Origin: Azolla caroliniana
Lineage: Eukaryota > Plantae > Polypodiophyta
Assembly: GCA_043228905.1 (NCBI GenBank)
Contig: JBHGNT010000550.1
Span: 1 to 20,991, forward strand
Reading direction: 5' to 3'
Length of the DNA stretch: 20,991 bases
Shown here: positions 317-20,991 of the stretch, in pieces
Layout: each line of letters opens with the position of its first letter
Numbering within the stretch: position 1 is the stretch's first letter
The notes under the pieces: model-generated
What the model was told of the DNA's origin: nothing
The model's input: the letters and a program-made list of their open reading frames with translations, nothing else
Databases searched by the model: none
Position numbers and translations under genes: made by a program

Positions 317-336
317 TGTCATAGAAAGGATGCCAC

Positions 337-410
337 GATGGAATGTAGGGGGTTGAACTCATGACCTCCTGGTCTTATTGGGCAACCTTATCAATCAAGC
401 TACATCCATC
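337..410 (-). other. Degenerate tRNA-like (Pol III A-box/B-box) unit in U3 of LTR A, antisense to the element
   Basis: Minus strand reads GATGGATG-TAGCTTGATTGATAAGG...GAGGTCATGAGTTCAACCCC...CATTCCATC. It is 74 nt, T8-to-G53 spacing is 44 nt (canonical 45), and the ends are self-complementary like an acceptor stem. Confidence 0.6.
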
Positions 411-465
411 TATGCATTATTGTATTATATAAGATTCAACTTATTACATTGTAGGTTAATCACTA

Positions 466-519
466 GAACTTTCAAGATACTTCTAGAGAATGCATCTTCA
501 TGCGCTCTCTAGAAGTTTC
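466..519. promoter_or_regulatory. Degenerate heat-shock-element arrays in LTR A
   Basis: GAA-ct-TTC-aa-GAT-ac-TTC-ta-GAG (466-488) and CTC-ta-GAA-gt-TTC (507-519), upstream of the TATA at 550. Confidence 0.5.
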
Positions 520-688
520 CTAGGTTACATGCATACCTCCACATTCTTGTATAAATACTTGGGTGCACCTTGATTACAATTAAGGTGAACAACACCAATT
601 ACGGAAGCATAATATCAGTTCTTGTTCTCTTGTCTATATTCTCTCTCTCTCTCTTAGTATTTAGCTTCATCTACTCGTCCGTGATAGT

Positions 689-1788: not shown

Positions 1789-2309
1789 TTACCCTACTTC
1801 TCCGTGCTCCTACAATTCAGTTACACCAGCAGGAGGTTTTACTTTGCAAGTAAGTCTTTATTTTGGGTCTACTTCAATACAATCCCATGCCTTCCTCGAT
1901 TCTGGTGCATCTACTTGTTTCATTGATATCTTGTTCGTCCAAGCACATAATATCCCCACCGTCCGCACAACACAACCCATATCCGTTGAAGCTATTGACA
2001 GACGGGTTCTCTCTTCGAGGGCGGTTACCGAAGCCACTGTCCCATTGGTACTTCAAGTAGGGTCCCACCATGAGGTGTTAATGTTCTACCTCATTGTAAC
2101 CCCTTGACATCCGATTGTTTTAGGGCTATCTTGGTTGGAAACACACAATCCGACGATGGATTGGTTCAACCGTTCCATCACTTTTTCATAGACACCAATG
2201 CAGGGTCACGACTCCCCACACTGTTACTTGTGTGGGGGTTGCTTTCAGCTTGGTTGCGCATTCTTCCGATTTCAACTCAGTCTCCAACACTGTTGATTCC
2301 GTTGTGGCT
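1736..2309 (+). pseudogene. pol: pol N-terminus (aspartic protease) of element A
   Basis: AFLDSGASTCFID motif, then after an in-frame stop HPIVLGLSWLETHNP. Confidence 0.85.
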
Positions 2310-2722
2310 TGTCGAGACTCGTGGGTAGGAGAGAGTGAGAGCGAGAGCGAGAGCGGAAGAGAGAGGGTGTGTGTGTGCGTGAGAGAGTGAGAGAGAGTGA
2401 GAGAGATAAGACTTGAAATAGAAATGAGATTATATTATGGTGAAACAAGATTACAATGAGTAGGCTAAGGGCTAAAGATTGGTGTTGAACCGAATGAGTT
2501 GAAAGGAATGTATGGACACTTATTTATAGATCCTTATGGAGTATTCTAGAATGTTCTAGAATATTTTAGATTTTTATGATAACAAATATAATCATGAAAT
2601 ATTAAAGGATGTTCTAGAATATTCTAATATCTCGTAATAACTAAAAATATAATTATTATAATCACACAACATTTATGTTATTTCAATGGTTAAGGGTTCA
2701 ACACATAGACCAAGAAGTGACA
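2310..2722 (-). repeat. 3' LTR of element B (413 bp)
   Basis: Direct repeat of 7320-7786 with roughly 15 substitutions by eye. It lacks a 20-bp HSE unit and a 40-bp segment near the U3 start. Confidence 0.95.
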
Positions 2723-2735
2723 TTATCCCCCCTTT
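2723..2735 (-). other. Polypurine tract of element B
   Basis: AAAGGGGGGATAA on the minus strand immediately before the TGTCA of the 3' LTR. Confidence 0.85.
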
Positions 2736-2785
2736 CGATGACGAGTTCCACGAGTCGGAAGACAAGAGTTTGGACTTGGTTTATG

Positions 2786-2944
2786 GGGATATTTGTCATG
2801 AAATGCAACAACCATGTCGGAGGCATTAGCAAGATGCTCAACATGCTCCCTTGTTCGATCATTAGGTGTATAACCTAACCAATCAACCAAATAATATAGT
2901 TTGTTGCAGATGATCTTGGAGTCAAGAATGGCAGTAACCTCATA
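2786..2944 (-). other. Chromodomain at the integrase C-terminus
   Basis: YEVTAILDSK...YYLVDWLGY...EHLANASDMVVAFH; the Y/W/Y aromatic cage residues of group I chromodomains are retained. Confidence 0.9.
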
Positions 2945-5900
2945 TTTAGAGCCATTGGAAACTTCGATTGGAGGTGGGGGAGGTGTAAGACGTCCCGAAA
3001 TAGATCTTGTTGTGTAGGGCTCCAAAAGTGAAACATGGAAGACCGGGTGAAGACGCATATGAGGAGGGAGATCAAGACGAAATGTCACATCATTGATGTT
3101 ACCAGAGATCACATATGGGCCGAAACGTTGATAATCCAATTTGTAGCAAGGTCAGGTGGTTTTAATGCTACCTTCTAAGAGCCATACACGATCTCCTACT
3201 TGAAACGTAGTCGATGAATCACGCTGATGATGATCAACAATCTTCTTTTGAGTGTTTTGGGCATCACATAAATGATGCAAAAGTATATCCTGAACTTCTT
3301 AGAGTCGAGTGAGTTGATCTTCAGCAGTTGGGTTTTGCGGGAGTTCAGGATGTTCAAGCATCGTCCAATGAGGATGGTACCCAATGTTAGCGAAAAATGG
3401 GGAATATCCAGTAGAAGAATGTTCGGAGTTGTTATAAGCAAATTCCACCAAATGTAATAAATCCACTCAATCATCTTGTTGATAGTTGACAAAACAACGT
3501 AGATATTGTTCGACTGTTTGGTTGGTGCGCTCACTCTGCCCATTAGTCTTTGGATGGTAGCCGGAAGAGACTTTACAAGAAGTATGTAAGAGTTTGAACA
3601 TGTGCCGCCAAAATTTCGAGATGAATTGGGGACCCCGATCACTGATAACATCATCTGGAAGACCATGATGGCGAAACACCTCCCGCATGAGTAAATCGGT
3701 TGTCTCTTGACTAGTAATGGTCTTCGTGCATGGAAGGAAATGCGTCATCTTCGTAAAACAATCGACTACCATGAGAATAGAATCAAATCCCTTGGAAGGT
3801 GGAAGATCTGTAATAAAGTCCAAGGAAATAGATTTCCATGGGCTCTTTGGAATAGGCATTGGCTGTAATACGCCATATGGATGATGTCGAGGCTTTTTTG
3901 ATCGACAACATGTATCACAACTACGAACATAATCCGTAACAAAATGGCGAAGCCGTGGCCACCAATATCGGTTAGAAATCAACTCAAAAGTCTTATAGAT
4001 GCCGAAATGTCTAACCATTAGCGTGTCATGACATTGTTGCACGACTTTGAGTCGAGAAGGACCGTCAAGCACATACAAGAGAGTTTGTCGAAAAAGCAAA
4101 CCATCATGCCAATTGAACTAGGTGTAGTCTAGACAAGGATTTTGAGATTGGGAGCTGGAAGCACAATCTGGGATAATATGTCTCAAAACCTCTCGGGCGA
4201 ATGCATCAGTCGCAATCTGCTCCCGAATGGAATCAAGAAGCCTTGAATCTCCCGGTGTGTTGATAGTATGTATTGCCATTACTCGTAGACGATGAGGACC
4301 TAAGAGGATTTGCTTTTGACTTTCAAATACAGCCTCTCCTGGTTGAAGTTCCATATACGAACGTCGAGACAAAGCATCTGCTTTTCCTTGTTGAATCCCA
4401 GGGCAATATAGAATTACAAAATCAAAACGAGGTAAGAATTGCACCCAACGAGCTTGTCGACAATTCAAGACTCGAGCACTTTGGAAGTATGTTAGATTTT
4501 TGTGATCATTGTAGACAATAATCTGTTGAGAAAAACCCTGCAAAAAATGACGCCATTGTTGAAAAGAATCCACAATTGCAAGAAACTCTTTGTCGTGAAT
4601 CTCATAGTTGATTTCCGCAGTTTCAAATTTCCGTGAGTGAAAAGCCACAGGGTGCAATTCTCCATCTTCGCCAATCTGGGATAGTACGCTTCTGAGTGCG
4701 AAATCAGATGCATCAGTTTCAAGTATAAAGCACCTCATTGGATCGACATGCATTAAAATTGGTGCAGATGTAAACGCTTGCTTTAAACCCTCAAATGCAG
4801 AGTTCGCATCTATACCCCATACAAATGGTTGATTCTTGCAAGTTAGTTGAGTGAGGGGCAATACAGTCTTTGAATAATCTTTGATGAACTTGCGATAAAA
4901 GTTTGCGAACCCCAAAAAACATTGTACATCTCGCACAAACTGTGGTTTTTGCCAATCCAAAATTGTTTGAACCTTTGATGGATCCATAGAGATGCCATTT
5001 GAAGAGACTATGTACCCCAAAAATTCCACTTGAGACTGGTCGAAACTACACTTCTCCAATTTTGCATAGAGACCATATTCTTGTAACCGTTGCAAAACTT
5101 GGCGAACATGTATCTAATGCTCCTCTTGAGTTTTTGAGTAGATCAAGATATCATCCAAGTAAACTATGATGAAGATATTGAGGAAGTCTCGAAAAATGTC
5201 ATTCTCCATATGTTGGAAAACTGTTGGTGCATTCGTGAGACCAAATGGCATCATTGTATACTCAAAATGACCATAGCGAGTGCGGAACGCGGTCTTCCAT
5301 TCATCCCCAGGACGAATTCGAACAAGGTTGTAGGCACCTCGAAGATCTAACTTTGTGAAATACTTTGCACCCATGGAGGCTCTTTTCCTGGTTGCAAATC
5401 AATCGGGCAATCATATGGTCGATGCTCTGGTAATCTATTAGCCTTCACCTTATCGAACACATCGGAGAATTCTATGTACTTCTTTGGTAATTGGGACCCC
5501 AATTCTTGTGAGCTAGATGAGGGAGTTGCTAAAACCGCAAACACCATCATGTCTTCCTTCCTTCCATCCTCTCGTAACTGATGTATAGAGATTGTTGTAA
5601 TCGTGTGCAATCCTAGATCCATTGTTGGAGTTTCAAGAGACTCGGACTGTACTGTGACCTCTTCAATAGTTCTTTTTCTCCAATCAATAGTTGGGTTGTG
5701 TAACTCAAACCAAGGAAGACCAAGAACTAGAGAGTGCTCTGTACTACTAATGATGTTGAATGAGATGATACTAGCCAAATTACTTAGGACTACACGAATT
5801 GGTTCAGACTCTTCGACTATATCACCTGATGCTATAGGGCGACCATCGATGACTCCTATAGCTACTAGGTTCGGGAGCTTGTTCAAGATGATGTCTTGGG

Positions 5901-6068
5901 TCAATGCAAACTCGTGATCCATGAAACAAGAATTGGCTCCAGAATCTAGGAGGGCAGAGGCTAGGACTCGATGACCTGTAGATGTGCTAAGCTCAACTTG
6001 TGTAGAAAAAACTCTAATAACTTGATTTGATGAAATGGAACCACAACTAGGTACTAACTCTACATATC

Positions 6069-6120
6069 TAGGATGGTCCAACCAAATGGCTCCTATTTTG
6101 GTTGGACTTATTCATTTAAC
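6069..6120 (-). promoter_or_regulatory. Putative -1 frameshift signal (slippery site plus pseudoknot), element B
   Basis: G-TTA-AAT (6120-6114), 6-nt spacer, perfect 11-bp stem GTCCAACCAAA/TTTGGTTGGAC, loop ATAGGAGCCA, downstream TCCTA. Confidence 0.7.
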
Positions 6121-7235
6121 ACATCCTCTAATTGGCTCAAGACATCAAATCTATTCTCATGGCATGGGTTATTAGGCTTAATAGTTAAGTTATTAGAATT
6201 GATAGTATAACTCGAGGTAGGGTTGTCATATGCACTTACTTGGTAAACTTGACGTCTAGGTTTATGTGGACAATTCACAGCAATATGTTCTGGACCACCA
6301 CAATAGAGGCATAGGCGATGCGCCCGACGTCGTTGTTTCTTAGCATTTGATAAAGGCCCTCGACATTGTGTTGACTCTATTTCCATCAAAGTGGGATCAT
6401 CCCTCGTAATGGGTCTGGGAACTTGTGGCGGTGTTGCGACTATTGAAGCATACGTCTGTTCTGGTTGGTGGCGTAGCATTTGTTGACGTTCAGAACATCA
6501 CTCAAATAGGTGATTATCACATCACACAGCTCGACTAATGGCCTTTGTAAGAGACTTTGGATCTTCGTGGAAAGTAAGAAGAAGATCTTTGACATCGTTA
6601 CCCAAACCCTGACGAAATTGATCCATTAAGGCTGCCTCATCCCAAGGTATCTCACATGCTAAGAGACGGAAATGTGTTGCGTAGGCTGAAACGGGACGAT
6701 CTCCTTGTCAGAGTCTTCGAATCTTGTTTATTGCCATTCTAGTGCTATCAGTGTCTCCAAAACTAGCTTGAAACTCTTTAACGAATGCCTCGAAATCCTC
6801 CAACAATGGTGATTTCTTCTCTAGAAGTGGTGCAAACCATGCTAATGATGTACCACTTAGCAAGGTTCCTATTAATCCCACATGAGCAGCATCAGTTGGG
6901 TGTCCATTGGGATGTAACTGAATCACCAAGCGGACTTGATTCAGGAAACCTCGAAACAAAGATCGGGTACCATCAAACTTGGCAGGGAGGCTAATATTTG
7001 GTTCCCTTGGGGAGTTTTGAACCCCCGCCGCTTGTTCTCGTAATGTTAATATAGTAGCCTCGAGTTGATGAACCCGTTGTGATAACTCCTCATATTGATG
7101 AGCTTTCTTGGTACTCACTTGTTGTAAATCCCCGAGTAGCCTATGATTTTCTTGCTCTAATGCCACAAACTTAGTTGTGAGCATGTCGAGCTTAGAAAGG
7201 ACACGCATATACTCTTGCTTGCTCACAGATTCCAT
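6093..7235 (-). pseudogene. gag: gag of element B
   Basis: MESVSKQEY, coiled coil, EPNISLPAKFDGTR, CCHC knuckle CLYCGGPEHIAVNC. In-frame TGA stops are consistent with CGA deamination. Confidence 0.92.
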
Positions 7236-7306
7236 AACTAAGGGGGGGAAATAAAGAAGGGAAAAGAAGAAAGCTTGCTAGGGTTATTGGAAAAGGAAAC
7301 AGAAAG

Positions 7307-7317
7307 ATTCGGTTCAA
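7307..7317 (-). other. Self-complementary primer binding site of element B
   Basis: TTGAACCGAAT lies 2 nt after the LTR end and is complementary to ATTCGGTTCAA (7499-7489, minus strand). Confidence 0.82.
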
Positions 7318-7547
7318 ACTGTCGAGACTCGTGGGTAGGAGATAGAGCGAGAGCGAGAGTGATAGCGAAAGAGAGAGGGTGTGTGTGTGCATGAGAGAGA
7401 GTGAGAGAGATAAGACTTGAAATAGAAATGAGATTATATTATGATGAAACAAGATTACAATGAGTAGGCTAAGGGCTAAAGACTGGTGTTGAACCGAATT
7501 AGTTGAAATGAATGTATGGACACTTATTTATAGATCCTTATGGAGTA

Positions 7548-7648
7548 TTCTAGAATGTTCTAGAATATTTTAGATTTTTATAATAACAAATATAACCATG
7601 AAATATTAAAGGATGTTCTAGAATAATCTAGAATGTTCTAGAATATTC
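7548..7648. promoter_or_regulatory. Heat-shock-element arrays in LTR B
   Basis: TTC-ta-GAA-tg-TTC-ta-GAA (7548-7565) and TTC-ta-GAA-ta-aTC-ta-GAA-tg-TTC-ta-GAA-ta-TTC (7616-7648). Copies at 2544-2561 and 2612-2624. Confidence 0.7.
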
Positions 7649-7695
7649 TAATATATCGTAATAACTAAAAATATAATTATAATAATCACATAACA

Positions 7696-7767
7696 TATAT
7701 GTTATTTCAATGGTTAAGGGTTCAACACATAGACCAAGAAGTCATGGGTTCGATTCTTGATAAGCCA
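7696..7767 (+). other. Degenerate tRNA-like (Pol III A-box/B-box) unit in U3 of LTR B, antisense to the element
   Basis: TATTTCAATGGTTAAGG (A-box-like, from 7703) ... GAAGTCATGGGTTCGATTCT (B box 7747-7757) ... GCCA. T8-to-G53 spacing is 45 nt. Confidence 0.62.
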
Positions 7768-8009
7768 AAATGTTGTCTTCATGACATGGCTGATTCCAAC
7801 TTGGTCGCTTCTGTGCCATGGGACATCTTTGTTCCTATCATCAATTTGCCCGCAAGATGTAGCGACTTTTTGGATATGTTCGAAAAGTGAAATGCGAACA
7901 GGTTACCGACACATCGCCCCTAAGATTGCCCAATCGAACTCCAAGATGGTGCGCATCCACCATTTGGGCCCATCTATGGGCTATCTGAACCCGAAGTTGA
8001 CGCTCTTCA

Positions 8010-8500
8010 TGTGCGGAATAACGCTCAGCAAAAACCGAGTCTTAAACTCAATGGAAGAACAAAATAGAAATGGAAGAACACTTACACAAACAATAGAGAG
8101 GACACTGGATGTTTATGTGGAAAACCCTAAATGGGAAAAAAAACCACGGGAGGCCACAAACTCCAACTACCACTATGAGAAGAAGGGTACAAGGAGAGAC
8201 TCAGAGGCAACGACCTCGAGCTCTATACCTTCCCCAACCGGCAGTAACAACAGAAAGACTTGAATTTGTATCTCTCTTTCTCTCTCTCTCTCTCTCTCTG
8301 CAACCTCTGTACAACAATATATCGACACACACATAAAGTCATTGCCCTAAGTCCTATTTATACTTATATGACTTTAGGACTATTTACAAATGTGGCCATG
8401 ACAGGCACACTAGAAACATATTTACATATATGTTCCTGGATCCTGTTCACACTAGATTCGCCCTATCCGAATCTCATCCGAAGGGACTGAATTCCCAACA
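8010..8500 (-). repeat. 3' LTR of copia C
   Basis: Begins TGTTGGGAAT on the minus strand after PPT GAAGGGGGGGTT (8512-8501). Homologous to 13151-13642, contains a (CT)n tract. Left boundary uncertain by about 10 bp. Confidence 0.88.
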
Positions 8501-8510
8501 AACCCCCCCT

Positions 8511-10213
8511 TCACTCTGGCATGGGATGCCTTGTCAATCTGATTCGTCTCTTGCACATGCCTAGCTTGTCAGTCGATAGCACCTTGGTCAGCATGTCCGA
8601 CCCGTTCTCCTCAGTATGGATCTTCCTCAGCAAGAAATCTTTATCTTCTACCTTCTCCCGGAGCTAGTGATATCACCTTTGGATGTGCTTCGCTCGAGAG
8701 TAGTATGTTACGTTCTTCGCAAGGTGAATGGGCTTTGACTGTCACAGTAGAGCCGGCATTCCTCATGCCGGATCCCTAGCTCTCCCATAAAGTCCTTCAT
8801 CCAGATTACCTCTTTGTCAGCTTCTACAACCGCCATGTACGATGCTTCCATTGTCGATAGTGCAACGGACTTCTGCAACCTCGGCTGCCACGATACGGCT
8901 CCCCCTGCATATGTTATTACATATCTGGAAGTTGAACAATTGGTATCCGCATCAGCCGACATATCCGAATCCTTGAATACTTCAAGTTGGGGTTTTCCAT
9001 AGCCGAATCGGAGGCACATACTCGAGGTGACTTTCAAGTACCAGAGTATCCACGTGACCGCGGTCCAATGTTCTCTTCCCGAATTGCTCATGAACCGACT
9101 GACCACTCCGACAACATATCTGATATCCGGTCGGGTACACACCATTGCGTACATCAAGCTTCCGACGGTAGAGGCATATGGTATCTTCATCATCTTTGAT
9201 TTCTCTGTCTTGTTCTTCGGACTTTGCTTTCTGGACAACTTGCAGTTTGTCGGAAGTGTCGATCCGACCGACTTAGCATCCGACATGCTGAACCTTTGAA
9301 GCACCTTTGTCATGTACTTTTCCTATGACAGCCACAAATGCTTCTTCGACCGGTCCCAAACTATGTGCATCCCTAGGATCTATCTCGTCGAACCCATATC
9401 TTTCATTGCGATGACTGGCTCAAAGCCTTCTTCAGCATTCTGATCTTGATATGGTCTCATCTGACGATCAGCATGTTGTCCACATATAGCAATAGTATCA
9501 AGAAGTCTCCTCCATCAAACTTCTTCACAAATACGCAGTGGTCGGCTTGCATCTTGTGGTATCCTTGGTCGGTCATGAAGGAGTCGAACTTTCGGTACCA
9601 TTGCCCAGGAGCTTGTTTTAGTCCGTATAAGCTCTTCTTCAATCGGCATACCATGTGCTCATTCCCTTTCTTGACGAATCCTTTCGGTTGTTGCATGTAG
9701 ATCTCTTCTTCGAGGTCGCCATGTAGGAACGTCGTCTTGACATCTAGTTGCTCTACCTTGAGGTCCATGTTTGCCGCTATGCTCAACACCGTCTAAATGG
9801 ATGTCATCTTCACTACCAGGACAAACATCTCATCGAAGTCCACTCCTTTCTTATGTTGGAAGCCCTTCACCACAATGCGAGCCTTATACCTTGGTGGATT
9901 TCTGGAGTCTCCCGATTTTAGCTTGTACACCCACTTGTTCCGGAGCGCTCTCTTTCCTTTCGGCAGCTCTGTCAATTCATATGTGTGGTTCTCATGTAGG
10001 GAATCCATCTCATCCTACATGACACTTAACCACTTGCGGCTGTGGGTGTCTCTCTTGGCTCCTTCGAAGCTTTCCGACTCCCCCTCGTCGGTCAACAACA
10101 CATGCTCTACATCGGAAATCTCCAGGGGGGCTCTTCTCCTCCTGAGAGGATATCTCCTTCCTTAGCCTTTGGCCACCGGTTCCTTCGTTTGTTCTTCATC
10201 CGAATCCAATTCG
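8511..10213 (-). pseudogene. pol: copia pol (RT-RNase H), disrupted
   Basis: KWVYKLK, YKARIVVKGF, QLDVKTTFLHG, LKKSLYGLKQAP, YVDNML, TRPDI, DSDMSAD, YCDSQ, DMLTK; multiple stops and frameshifts. Confidence 0.95.
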
Positions 10214-12260: not shown

Positions 12261-13061
12261 GTGACAACATTTACTTGTGGTGGAATGACTTTGGGTATAG
12301 CTCGACATCACCAAGTTGCCGATGGGGAGGCAGCAAGTGAATTCATGAATGCGTGGGGACGTACAGTTCGAGGCGTGCTAGTGCCTGTGTCAACACCACC
12401 ATTGCATGATCGCTCGGCACTCATGCCACGAGACCCTCCCATGCCTATGTTTGATCACATTGAATATAAGAAACTGCCTCCTAAGTCGGACCCAGATTCA
12501 ACTACCCAAGAGTACCCCGAACTCAGCATCAACAAGATCAATTTTAGCATAGAAATGCTCAAGAAAATCAAGGTGCAAGCTTCAAAAGGGGCTAGCGAAG
12601 GCGTTTTCTACTCCACCTTCGTGAGCTTGTTGGCACATTTGTGGCGGTGCATCACGAAATCACGCGGATTGGAAGATGACGACGAGTGTGAAACGAAGGC
12701 GCTTGTGGCTGTGAACGTGAGGAAACGGATTGATCCTCCTCTTCCCGAGGGTTATTTCGGTAATGCAATGTGCCATACAAGCCCCCATACCACAATCAAA
12801 AACTTATTGGAGCAACCTCTCTCATTCGCAGCTAGTATTATAAATGCTTCCATAAAGAATATTACAAGTGACTACGTTCGTTCCGCGCTTGATTTCATCG
12901 AACTCCAACAAAAGAGCCATGTCGATGAAGCACCGGATGTATGCCGTCATCTTCATGTGCATCACCTCCCACACCGTGGCCTCGATCTTGTCCGGTCTCT
13001 TGTCCCCGAACTGAACCGGCAACCAAAGATCTTTAACCACCAGCATATCCCTCATCTTTGA
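12261..13061 (+). pseudogene. BAHD acyltransferase exon 2, truncated at ~12915 and running into antisense copia gag to a stop at 13061
   Basis: HxxxD motif HQVADG, STFVSLLAHLWRC, PPLPEGYFGNA, DYVRSALDFIELQ. No DFGWG motif; about 48 unrelated residues follow. Confidence 0.85.
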
Positions 13062-13150: not shown

Positions 13151-13642
13151 TGAAGAGAAATGCGCGGAATATCGCTTGGCCGCAACTGAGTAGTAAATCA
13201 CTTCTATAAGAATCAAACACAAAAATGGGAAGGGGAGTGTACACAAAAAAAATGACGCAGGATATTTACGTGGAAAACCCTATTAGGGAAAAACCACGGG
13301 TGCCCATAGATTCCAAACTATCACTATGAAGAGAAGGGGTACAATCAGAGACTTGGAGGCAACGACTTGGCTCTGTTTCTTCGCATTGATGAGGTTACAA
13401 CAGAGTATATGTTTGTATCTCTCTCTCATTGTACAACGGTTACCACAACATGAACACAACTACACTAAAGTGATTGTCGTAAGTCATATTTATACTTATA
13501 TGAACTGAGGACTATTTCCAAATATAGCCTCAATGGGCTTACTCAGAAACATATTTACAAATATGTCTTCTACATCCGGTTCTCACCGGGTCTTCTACAT
13601 CCGGTTCTCAAGATCCCATCTGGAGGGACCGAAATCCCAATA
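13151..13642 (-). repeat. 5' LTR of copia D
   Basis: Collinear with 8010-8500 but clearly diverged. Contains a 21-bp direct repeat (13565-13585 and 13590-13610). Confidence 0.88.
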
Positions 13643-17246: not shown

Positions 17247-20200
17247 TCATTTACTACCACTCTTTCTCATGCTTTTCTTTTTCTTTTTCTTTTCTAAGGA
17301 CACGTGTTATTCCTTTTCCATCGTATCCGGCAACACCAGATCCGTAGTAGGTTCCTCTGGGTTGCCGTCTATCCGAATACTGCTTCCGGTTCCTGCTCCA
17401 TCCTCTGTTTGTTTGAATGGGTTCCCGTTTACCCACTTCTCCTAGATTTTGCGAGCCAGTGTTCCTAGCTGATACGACCCTTTGAACTCATGTGTTATCC
17501 AGTACAGTCCGGTCCACCAAAACCGTAACTTTCTTGGCATCTTGCCCATACGGGTCTGAAACACCAGAACCGGCTTCTCGATTTTGAACATTTTCTCATT
17601 TCCCTTTCAGTGCCGGTCGACAAACGCTTTCCGTCATCGTTGCTCGAGCTCTAACTGCAGAACGCTAGCTATCCAGAGCTCTTCTAGTTCATACAATGTC
17701 GCTAGCTGGATTTTTTCTGATTCCTTCTCACTTCACCTTTCCCAGACTTGAATCCGCAAACTTGGAATTTGAAACTCCATCAGCATTTCCGTTTCGAATC
17801 CGAAAGCTAACTGGAATGGTGTTGTCCGGATACTCGTCTTGTAAGCAATTCGGTAAGCCCAGAGCGCACTCTGTAGTTTCGTGTCCCAGTCGGTCCGGTT
17901 TTCATTAACTATTTTTCGAAGAATATTCTACAAGGTCTTGTTGGTGGATTCGGCCAATCCGTTGGCCTGCGGATAATATGGTGTACTCCGTTTGTGCACC
18001 ATCGCATAAAATGATGTTAAGCTGTCCACCACTTGTCAGGGGAAGTGTCCACCTTGATCACTGATTAGTTCGATTGGACATCCGTAACGACACTAGATGT
18101 AGTCGTATAGGAACTTGGTCGTTGACGTCGCGGTATTGTCCTTCAGTGCCTTTGCTTCAATCCACTTTGTGCAGTAGTCCATTGCCACATTAATTTGCCG
18201 GTTTCCAGTTCTTATTGTCGGAGGCTTAAAGGGTCCGACAAAGTCCAATCCCCATTTTTGAAACGGCTCTAGTGATAACCCTAGCTGATGTGGCATCCTC
18301 GCTTGCTCTGTCGGTTGGCCCATTCATTGACATAAGTCGCATTCCTTTGCATCTCGCATCGACTCCTTCAGTGTTGTAGGCCACCATAATCTGCTTTATC
18401 ATATCTTCATTGCTGTTGCATCTCCAATGTAGTGTCCTCCAATGACTCCACAGTGAGCTTCCCGTAAAATTGTGTCCTTTTCATCGCTCCGGATTGCTCT
18501 TCGCTATATACCATCCGCTTCCTTGTGGTACAATGTATCCTGGAATAAACAAAAGAGCCAACCTTGTACCGCCAACTATTTCCGCCCGTCTCGGTTTAAC
18601 TCTTTCAGACGTAGTCCGGTGCTGAGGAAGTGATGCATATTCATCAGTAATTTGTCCTCCTCGGCGATTGTCCTGGCGATCGTGTTTTCTACTGTTACCC
18701 TAAACAGTTGCGCGTCCGGTAGTTCGTCGCGGACTCCGTCACCTACCTCTCTAGATTCTAACTGACTGAAGTAATCCGCTACTGCATGTTGTACTCCCGA
18801 TCTGTGGTAGATTTCAAATTTGAACTCCTGTAGAAGCAACGTCCATCGTGCTAGTTTGCCGGTTAACGATGATTTGGAGACCAAGTACAACAATGTCGAA
18901 TGATCCACATGGAATAAGAATTTCTGTCCCAGCAAGTAATGATGGTACTTCGTTATAGTATATACCATTCCCAATGCTTCCCTTTCCATTGTCGAATAAT
19001 TCCGTTCTGCCTAGGAGAGCTTCTGACTGGTGTAGTAAACTGGCCAGTACCACTTTGGTTCGGTGAGGTACATAAGAACATTGCCAATCGCAATATCAGA
19101 TGCATCCACAAACACATGAAATTCCTTTGACCAATCTGAGGGTTGTACCACCAGTGCCTGGGATAGCATTACTTTGAGCGCATGGTATGCCCTATCCTCT
19201 AGTTCCATCCATTGAAAGGGTGTCCAGTGTACGACTGCATGTAGTGGTGTCCCAAGGTCGGCCAAGTATCGGAGCATCCGGCTATGCCACCGGATCTGTC
19301 CTAAATACCAGCTTAAAGCTTTGGCGATCGTCGGTGAAGGTGCTTCCAAATGGATCTAACTTTATCTAGGTTTGCTGCGATCCTATCCTTACTAACCATA
19401 TGACCTAGTAGTGTGCTGCTGGTTACCCCGAATACGCATTTCGCCGGATTCAGACTTAGTCAGTAACCTCTGCATTTTTCCAGGCATAACCGAAGATGGT
19501 CAAGTTGTTCTCCTTTCTTGCTATACACCGCAAAGTCATCTAAAAACACCTGCATAAACAATGGGGTAAACTCCCCGAAAATTTCCATGATGATTCATTG
19601 GAACATTGTTGGTGCCATCTTTAGTCTGAACATCATCACGACCGCTATGAAGACTCACCATTCAGTTACGTTCGCTGTTATCTCCTGGCCGTCAGGGTGC
19701 ATCCTGATTTGGTTATACCCGTTGAATCCGTCAAGGAAACTATACACCTTGTGACCTACCACCACATCCAAGACTCCATCCGTAAATGGAAGTGAAAATC
19801 CATTGGTGACAGTGACAACGTTTAATTTCCGGTAATCTACACAGACCCGTATTTTTCCGTTTTTCATAAGTACGACCACAATCAGGCTTAAAGGTGAAAC
19901 CGACCTGCAACAACTTATCGATCTCCTCCACCTTAGCCGCATAATTCGAATTCATCCGGTAACATCTCTGTGCTACCAATTTCGCATCCTTGCTCAAATG
20001 GATCTGGTGCTCATACAATTGTGGGTCCTGTCCCCGCATATCCTCATATGACCACACAAATACATCCCGAAATTTTTTCAATAATGTTACCATTCCGATT
20101 TCTCCTCCGGTGGCATTTCTTTGGCCACATGTACCGGTCTTGTTTCTTCCCCAATTCCTAAATTCACTTCTTCCAACTGTGATGCTTTCACACGTTGTGA

Positions 20201-20991
20201 TACCGCCATCTCCCGCTCTAGGGCTTCTTGTGCTTGGCGCAGTTCCCGAATTGCGTCCGGATCCGGCTCCTCACCGGCATCGTCCAGGTGCACGATATAT
20301 GGGGAGACAGCTTCGACAATGTCTACTTTTAACGAAGGGACTATCTTAGGGTTCTCCTCGAGGTATCGATCTACTTCTTCATCAGCAAGCGCTTCCAGCA
20401 TGTTCACGCTTTTGGCATACACCTCCTTGCTTGGGCCTGCACAGGTTTGTGTTGGTACTCTCACCTTAGTTTTGCCTCTTCGGAACGTAATATTGTTCTT
20501 CTACCAGTTTTGTTTAATATGAGCAGTACGTAACCATGGTCGTCCCAGCAACAGAGGATATGCTCCTTCATGTTTAACTGGAGAACCACCGCAAAAATCC
20601 GGAAGGCATGGCCTCCAATTGTCACTTCCAAGTCCCAAATCAATCCGGCCAGTCGTACTGATTTGGTGTCCGCAATCCAGAGCCAAAACGGGCATGGTTC
20701 CCATTCCTAGATTCCGAGAGTGTCACATGTTCATAGGCTTATTACATTTACTCCCGATCCACCATCAACAATTGTCCCCGGTACATCTCGTCCTTTGATG
20801 ATGGCGGTGATTGTTGGACTGCTCGTGTCGACCGCTACCGGTCCCTCTTCCGAATTTGAGAAGAACGCCGGAGCTGGTGCGGAACTTGGTGAGGCCAATG
20901 CTGATTTTAACCCATCGTTGAATTGGAGCACTAATTGCAGCAACCGACCTAGGGGTAGCATGATCTGGCATTCTTGTAGTGCCTACCATGT
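17247..20991 (-). pseudogene. pol: pol of element F, disrupted
   Basis: IVDGGSGVNVI; RVCVDYRKLN, FLDGFNGYNQI, FLDD; FVDASDIAIG, EREAL; WGLDFVGPF. Many stops and frameshifts; no chromodomain. Confidence 0.93.

What the first reader, a model, noticed from the sequence alone, without database searches (positions are those of the whole stretch)
7307..7499. Independent 11-nt self-priming match in element B: covariation with A
Seen: B has a different PBS (TTGAACCGAAT), again exactly complementary over 11 nt to a site 33 nt after the start of its TATA (ATTCGGTTCAA). In both families the PBS follows the LTR after the spacer GT, and the 11-mer ends in CAA followed by CACCA. Inference: compensatory change in most positions makes chance unlikely. 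The conserved CAA|CACCA may define the cleavage site and resembles a tRNA 3' end.
Basis: partly seen in the sequence, partly recalled or inferred. Interest (0 to 1): 0.72.

Follow-up and report, generated by a model that had tools for sequence, protein, structure and literature searches.

The report
Self-primed plant retrotransposons, reversed tRNA box
This plant jumping gene has an RNA start that exactly matches its primer site, so it likely primes its own copying as the yeast element Tf1 does (already predicted for this group), and its terminal repeat also carries a reversed tRNA-derived sequence that may act as a promoter or chromatin boundary.

Summary
Observation confirmed. Element B (7786-2310, minus strand, 5-bp target duplication) is a Tf1/sushi-type (Tcn1-like) chromovirus nested in element A. 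The 11-mer 33 nt after its TATA is the exact complement of the site after LTR+GT. The match holds genome-wide: 66 of 112 gag-anchored loci exact, controls 0 of 112. With metagenome loci there are 15 primer types of 10-12 nt, all A...CAA. This is Tf1-type self-priming, already predicted for 83% of 1500 plant Tcn1 elements (Neumann 2019), so the core is known. Corrections: the cut would follow CAA (nt 10-12), not always nt 11. CACCA is not a tRNA end; it varies (CGCCA, CRCAT) and pairs with the spacer. The covariation is likely templated, since plus-strand synthesis recopies the primer site from the primer. A hypervariable base just after the site (7 variants in 22 copies) fits that. Side finding, not met in my literature searches: most families carry a reversed tRNA-derived A-box/B-box unit at the LTR edge (110 of 128 copies antisense, 0 sense), with conserved boxes and a diverged middle. 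No RNA data; cleavage and function untested. The earlier scan notes returned concerned other elements.

The parts
7320..7786 (-). Element B 5' LTR (467 bp, TGTCA...GACA)
   Evidence: matches the 3' LTR at 389 of 404 aligned bases
7489..7499 (-). B self-primer ATTCGGTTCAA (inferred 5' end of the RNA)
   Evidence: starts at an A preceded by C in 22 of 24 family-B copies
7481..7488 (-). Junction CACCA + GTC: AC predicted to pair with the GT spacer, GTC with GAC of the LTR end
7318..7319 (-). 2-nt spacer GT between LTR end and primer-binding site; mirrored by 2 nt between PPT and U3
7307..7317 (-). B primer-binding site TTGAACCGAAT
7525..7532 (-). TATA box, 33 nt before the primer
7548..7565 (-). 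Heat-shock-element-like TTCTAGAA repeats in U3 (motif identity recalled)
   Evidence: perfect 3-unit pattern in 24 of 24 family-B copies
7696..7770 (+). Reversed tRNA-derived unit in U3 of B: A-box GG at 7712-7713, B-box GGTTCGATTC at 7747-7756; limits approximate
6711..7236 (-). B gag N-terminal part (DUF4939, Ty3 capsid-like); gag continues in further frames
2726..6111 (-). B pol: protease-like, RT (YLDD), RNase H, integrase, SH3, chromodomain with Y/W/Y cage residues; interrupted by stops and frameshifts
   Evidence: the protease assignment rests on the LDSG motif (recalled), with no Pfam hit
2725..2736 (-). B polypurine tract GAAAGGGGGGAT
2310..2722 (-). B 3' LTR (413 bp; a U3 deletion of about 55 bp removes the B-box part of the tRNA-like unit)
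2305..2309 (+). Target-site duplication TGGCT (second copy at 7787-7791); B sits inside A's pol
317..686 (+). Element A 5' LTR
340..407 (-). Reversed tRNA-derived unit in U3 of A
563..575 (+). U3 near-copy of the primer-binding site between TATA and primer in A; predicted to hairpin with the 3' copy of the primer
582..592 (+). A self-primer AAGGTGAACAA
689..699 (+). A primer-binding site TTGTTCACCTT after spacer GT (687-688)

Best explanation
B and A are Tf1/sushi-group (Tcn1-like) LTR retrotransposons whose LTR carries an exact complement of the primer-binding site about 32-33 nt after the TATA box, and they likely start reverse transcription by Tf1-type self-priming. Steps: (1, inferred) Pol II starts at the A of a pyrimidine-A dinucleotide, so the complement is the RNA 5' end. 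(2, predicted) The first 10-12 nt pair with the primer-binding site; the next bases form a bulged C, two pairs with the GT spacer, a small loop and a 3-8 bp stem with the LTR end. (3, inferred from Tf1) The element's RNase H cuts after CAA, giving the 3'-OH primer. (4, inferred) Plus-strand synthesis copies the primer back into the primer-binding site and adds one or two untemplated or cap-templated bases, which enforces the covariation and leaves a variable base right after the site. (5, inferred) Integrase trims the 2-nt extensions at both ends.
For: TATA-anchored search with no CAA or CACCA requirement: 66 of 112 loci exact over 11 nt, 88 of 112 with at most 1 mismatch; reverse-only and complement-only controls 0 of 112 exact, 9 and 5 with at most 1 mismatch. 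Metagenome loci: 26 of 57 with at least 450 nt upstream, controls 0 of 57. 15 distinct exact primer types, all starting with A and ending CAA. Base before the primer is C in 123 of 128 selected copies. Family E: primer position 5 and its partner are concordant in 57 of 60. Second stem covaries between A and C (8 bp in 10 of 18 and 8 of 12 copies). 7 different strings follow the site in 22 copies of one subfamily whose next 8 columns are invariant, and they occur in both primer subtypes. PPT is followed by 2 variable nt, then TG. Domain order, chromodomain and DUF4939 gag. Nearest named Pol relatives are fungal, 57-63%. Literature: Tcn1 83% self-priming predicted; Tf1 cut between bases 11 and 12 by RNase H (review passage); Tf1 cDNA keeps a copied primer site and untemplated 3' bases.
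Against: No transcript start, cleavage product or cDNA end was observed. The third duplex of the Tf1 'pretzel' was not found (mean p 0.47-0.88 across five families). The second stem is only 3 bp in families B, D and E, and family C's GA spacer cannot make both spacer pairs. 24 of 112 loci and 31 of 57 metagenome loci gave no match; some are decayed or truncated, but not all were explained. The variable base after the site is weak in B (19 of 24 are A) and A (16 of 18 are C). The window copy of B has A rather than a pyrimidine before its primer.
Confidence: 0.9

Rival explanations
1. The junction mimics a tRNA 3' end: a tRNA-processing or tRNA-recognising activity reads CAA|CACCA and makes the cut, or the primer runs to CCA.
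For: CACCA is the commonest linker in families A-D (12 of 18, 18 of 24, 9 of 12, 13 of 14).
Against: CGCCA in 40 of 60 family-E copies; CGCAT, CACAT and CACAA in loci L295, L299, L282. The LTR end offers GACAGT, not TGG, to pair with CCA. The A-to-G change keeps a pair with the spacer T as G-U. CCA lies on the downstream product of the inferred cut.
Confidence: 0.04
2. A host tRNA or tRNA fragment primes at this site, and the LTR match is only a regulatory hairpin.
For: The complement of B's site shares 9 nt with a tRNA T-loop (GGTTCAAAC); Neumann lists 5% of Tcn1 with tRNA-Met sites.
Against: The match is internal, not a 3' end; A gives only 6 nt (39 host tRNA sequences, an incomplete set). 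15 site types each track their own LTR. Sites begin TTG, not TGG.
Confidence: 0.04
3. The transcript starts further upstream, and the duplex is an internal structure for packaging or translation, with priming by another route.
For: No start site was measured.
Against: The duplex begins at a pyrimidine-A at a fixed 31-35 nt from TATA in nearly all families, and the variable base falls exactly at the duplex end.
Confidence: 0.02

Closest known systems
Plant chromovirus clade Tcn1 (Neumann et al. 2019, PMC6317226; Novikova et al. 2010, PMC2864245)
   Same: 5-bp target duplication, size within 5466-9444 bp (B is 5477), chromodomain with aromatic cage, fungal nearest relatives, LTR self-primer complementary to a site 0-5 nt after the 5' LTR.
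   Different: The passages and the supplement table I read give no cleavage-site motif, primer-length range or U3 tRNA-like unit. Their per-element table and sequence file were too large to read and may hold the primer sequences.
Tf1/Tf2 of Schizosaccharomyces pombe, Tj1 and Tosmo elements (passages of PMC7175516, PMC4600332, bioRxiv 2022.12.06.519325)
   Same: RNA 5' end complementary to the primer-binding site, about 11 nt, with a flanking stem between LTR sequence after the primer and the LTR end.
   Different: Primer is 10-12 nt by family; only two of the three pretzel duplexes are detected; a 2-nt spacer sits at both ends (that Tf1 lacks it is recalled, not checked); families A, C and E have a U3 near-copy of the site.
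Helenus, Ajax and Cassandra TRIMs with small-RNA-derived LTR promoters (Kojima 2024, PMC10886601)
   Same: tRNA-derived A and B boxes conserved inside an LTR, with the tRNA fold not kept.
   Different: Those are short non-autonomous elements primed by tRNA; the one plant family printed (Helenus-1_SMo) has the unit in sense. Here it is antisense, at the outer edge of U3, in gag-bearing families that also keep a TATA promoter. Kojima notes in one sentence that 'not a few' Repbase LTRs resemble tRNA parts, without analysing them.

Membership tests
Tcn1 chromovirus (Tf1/sushi group) | gag-PR-RT-RH-INT order with a C-terminal chromodomain | tested here: met
   Pfam DUF4939, RT_RNaseH, Integrase_H2C2, rve, SH3_Tf2-1 and Chromo in order; YLDD seen
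Tcn1 chromovirus (Tf1/sushi group) | Aromatic cage in the chromodomain | tested here: met
   Y (YEV), W (VDW) and Y (LGY) in the 2726-3151 translation; cage positions recalled
Tcn1 chromovirus (Tf1/sushi group) | 5-bp target duplication, TG...CA LTRs, 5.5-9.4 kb | tested here: met
   TGGCT at both ends, 5477 bp; range
Tcn1 chromovirus (Tf1/sushi group) | Pol clusters with reference Tcn1 elements and fungal or vertebrate Tf1/sushi elements | tested here: inconclusive
   Identity 57-63% to chytrid and Mucoromycota proteins, 47-49% to fish and frog, 44% to a seed-plant protein; quick tree only, 45 of 121 rows, no labelled Tcn1 reference
Tcn1 chromovirus (Tf1/sushi group) | Host is a moss or lycophyte | not tested
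   Host not identified; plant origin inferred from the element types in the window
Tf1-type self-priming | At least 10 nt of LTR complementary to the site just after the 5' LTR | tested here: met
Tf1-type self-priming | The complement is the RNA 5' end | tested here: inconclusive
   Indirect only: fixed TATA distance, pyrimidine-A start, variable base after the site
Tf1-type self-priming | Stem between LTR sequence after the primer and the LTR end | tested here: met
   8 bp in A and C, 3 bp in B, D and E
Tf1-type self-priming | Third pretzel duplex with the leader 3' of the site | tested here: not met
   No better than shuffles in five families, 12-14 copies each. My reading of which strands form it comes from a secondary description
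Tf1-type self-priming | RNase H cleavage releasing the primer | not testable with these tools
   Needs biochemistry
Helenus/TRIMp3 | Short non-coding TRIM with a sense Pol III unit and a tRNA primer | tested here: not met
   Coding element, antisense unit, self-primer
tRNA-type (type 2) Pol III promoter | A box and B box at tRNA spacing | tested here: met
   34-36 nt in 90 of 91 scored units, against 34-36 in 27 of 30 host tRNAs; between-family identity 0.69 and 0.73 in the boxes, 0.37 in the middle, 0.34 and 0.25 in the flanks (5 families; box windows were the anchors, which inflates them)
tRNA-type (type 2) Pol III promoter | TFIIIC or Pol III occupancy, or a transcript | not testable with these tools
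   No T4 terminator before the LTR edge in 94 of 94 units

The most novel reading that the evidence does not exclude
Protein-coding, self-primed Tcn1-like retrotransposons have kept a captured tRNA-gene promoter, reversed and facing outward at the edge of each LTR, as a working part: a built-in TFIIIC/Pol III boundary that shields the heat-shock-element and TATA promoter from the heterochromatin into which the chromodomain steers insertion, or a source of antisense RNA from the 3' LTR.
Probability: 0.35. Interest if true: 0.62.

Novelty: new member of a known kind. Interest (0 to 1): 0.36.

Why it matters
The self-priming itself confirms a published prediction for this clade. What is added is a natural series of 15 primer types that shows what is fixed at the cut site (A...CAA, then C-purine-C, a 2-nt spacer, a stem with the LTR end) and what is free (length, middle sequence, third duplex). 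It also shows a genomic footprint that can map the RNA start without RNA data. If the reversed tRNA-type boxes are functional, these would be coding retrotransposons carrying their own chromatin boundary, which would help explain how elements that target heterochromatin stay expressible.

Tried and rejected
Rfam: no tRNA or other credible family in the window or over either tRNA-like unit, so the unit is not a foldable tRNA. Third pretzel duplex not found. The U3 near-copy of the primer site is absent in families B and D and weak in E (mean z 0.2, 0.8, -1.0; A -2.7, C -2.0), so it is not a general feature. Family C lacks the tRNA-like unit and the heat-shock pattern (0 of 12). L288 (10-nt match, off pattern) was dropped before counting primer types. 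A leading C was trimmed from four metagenome duplexes (L256, L276, L277, L299), read as an added G after the site. The idea that the U3 unit base-pairs with the primer was dropped because it fits only primers containing GGTTC. The bacterial promoter scan is irrelevant. Primary Tf1 papers (Levin 1996; Lin and Levin 1997, 1998; Esnault and Levin 2015) were not held; Butler 2001 and Goodwin and Poulter 2001 were not read and may already describe the spacer and junction. Look-ups of earlier scan notes returned unrelated elements or nothing.

Full report
Observation. On the minus strand B's 5' LTR ends at 7320, GT follows, then TTGAACCGAAT (7317-7307). Its exact complement ATTCGGTTCAA lies at 7499-7489, 33 nt after the TATA at 7532, followed by CACCA. 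A has the same layout on the plus strand (TATA 550, primer 582-592, GT, site 689-699). The two 11-mers differ at 6 of 11 positions, and chance of an exact complement anywhere in B's LTR is about 1e-4.

What the element is. B runs from 7786 to 2310 with a TGGCT duplication and sits inside A's pol gene. It has a DUF4939 gag, RT, RNase H, integrase, SH3 and chromodomain, and is interrupted by stops and frameshifts. Its LTRs agree at 389 of 404 aligned bases. The nearest named Pol proteins are fungal (57-63%), then fish and frog (47-49%), then a seed plant (44%); the tree was the quick version on 45 rows, without a labelled Tcn1 reference. This fits plant Tcn1, part of the Tf1/sushi group. Neumann et al. 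2019 (PMC6317226; passages; Additional file 5 in full) predict self-priming for 83% of 1500 Tcn1 elements, by the same test of at least 10 complementary bases 0-5 nt after the LTR. Their per-element table and sequence file were too large to read. Novikova et al. 2010 (passages) found no primer site in one Selaginella element.

Covariation test. A genome search with DUF4939 gave 4242 candidates, 150 scored; I took 110 of the 150 plus A and B. A TATA-anchored search that did not ask for CAA, CACCA or GT found an exact 11-nt complement in 66 of 112 and at most one mismatch in 88; reverse-only and complement-only controls gave 0 exact and 9 and 5 near matches. These loci are dominated by one family and are not independent. 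A metagenome scan returned 80 loci; 57 had at least 450 nt upstream, 26 of them matched, controls 0. Their hosts are unknown and several belong to the same families. After dropping L288, adding L246 from a relaxed search and trimming one leading C in four loci, there are 15 exact primer types: one of 10 nt, seven of 11, seven of 12, all beginning with A and ending CAA. A set of 128 copies selected for at most 2-3 mismatches was used for detail; 92 of these are exact over the full primer.

The junction. In folded leaders the primer duplex has probability 0.92-0.96 in 12 of 12 representatives. After CAA comes a bulged C, then AC or GC facing the GT spacer (B 21 of 24, D 14 of 14, E 56 of 60, A 12 of 18; family C has GA and cannot make both pairs), then a stem with the LTR end: 8 bp and covarying in A and C, 3 bp in B, D and E. 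The conserved block is thus explained by structure and by the integrase end motif, not by tRNA mimicry. CGCCA is the main form in family E, CRCAT and CACAA occur, and no TGG is on offer. The third duplex of the Tf1 pretzel, as described second-hand in a preprint (passages), was not detected. The 2-nt spacer is mirrored by two variable bases between PPT and U3, as expected for ends trimmed by integrase (established for retroviruses, recalled).

Why the match stays exact. In LTR replication the plus strand copies the primer, so the site is rewritten from it. Tf1 cDNA keeps such a copy and carries untemplated 3' bases (PMC11042837, passages). One family-E subfamily shows 7 different one- or two-base strings right after the site in 22 copies (T 8, C 4, G 4, TC 3, CC, GC, TA), with the next 8 columns invariant and the variants spread over both primer subtypes. 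I infer that G reflects a start one base earlier and C a copied cap or an untemplated base. The effect is weak in A and B. This marks the RNA 5' end indirectly and means the compensations are likely templated rather than separately selected. The RNase H cut is taken from Tf1 (review passage) and not shown here.

Side finding. The first 100 nt or so of U3 hold a reversed tRNA-like sequence. A profile built from 39 host tRNA sequences hit 110 of 128 U3 regions on the antisense strand and 0 on the sense strand at 5 bits or more (92 and 0 at 10 bits), and 11 of 24 metagenome regions, all antisense. A-to-B spacing equals that of host tRNAs. Across five families the boxes are about 70% alike and the middle and flanks 25-37% (anchoring inflates the box values). 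Rfam sees no tRNA, and no T4 run precedes the LTR edge in 94 of 94 units. Family C lacks the unit and also the heat-shock-type repeats found in B, D, E and half of A. B's own 3' LTR has lost the B box. Conserved boxes with a free middle suggest selection for factor binding, but CpG decay, shared ancestry and the small number of families leave a relic reading open. Kojima 2024 (PMC10886601; parts 1-4 of 6 and supplement passages) describes such units in non-coding TRIMs only. Searches (listings) and passages of PMC7466625 and PMC3601003 gave no description of a reversed unit in coding elements; the library lacks most subscription journals and Repbase reports.

Verdict. The finding is real and its main reading is right, but it is a known mechanism already predicted for this clade: new member of a known kind. 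The tRNA-end idea is not supported. The reversed tRNA-type boxes are the part worth following.

Noticed in passing
window 7696-7770 (+) and 340-407 (-); families A, B, D, E and L228: Reversed tRNA-derived A-box/B-box unit at the outer edge of U3; absent in family C
   Followed up: partly
window 563-592; L056, L021, L030: U3 near-copy of the primer-binding site between TATA and start in families A and C, weakly in E; could sequester the 3' copy of the primer in a hairpin
   Followed up: partly
window 7548-7645 and 2545-2620: TTCTAGAA arrays like heat-shock elements in U3 of B, D, E and half of A, absent in C
   Followed up: partly
family E loci, e.g. L036, L064, L128: The pyrimidine tract after the primer-binding site looks built up by repeated short additions over successive cycles; speculative
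   Followed up: no
window 8009-8452 and 13160-13586; 8711-9792: Two LTR-like repeats only 69% alike around Copia RT and RNase H remains, interrupting A again
   Followed up: no
window 12261-13061 (-): Open frame resembling a plant BAHD acyltransferase exon (HxxxD motif, recalled), among the retrotransposon remains
   Followed up: no
window 18576-20500 (-): A third, degenerate gypsy-type pol with RNase H domains
   Followed up: no
G000:C550 versus G000:C17 near 7.0 Mb: The window's contig matches C17 at 100% in three searches, probably a redundant contig
   Followed up: no
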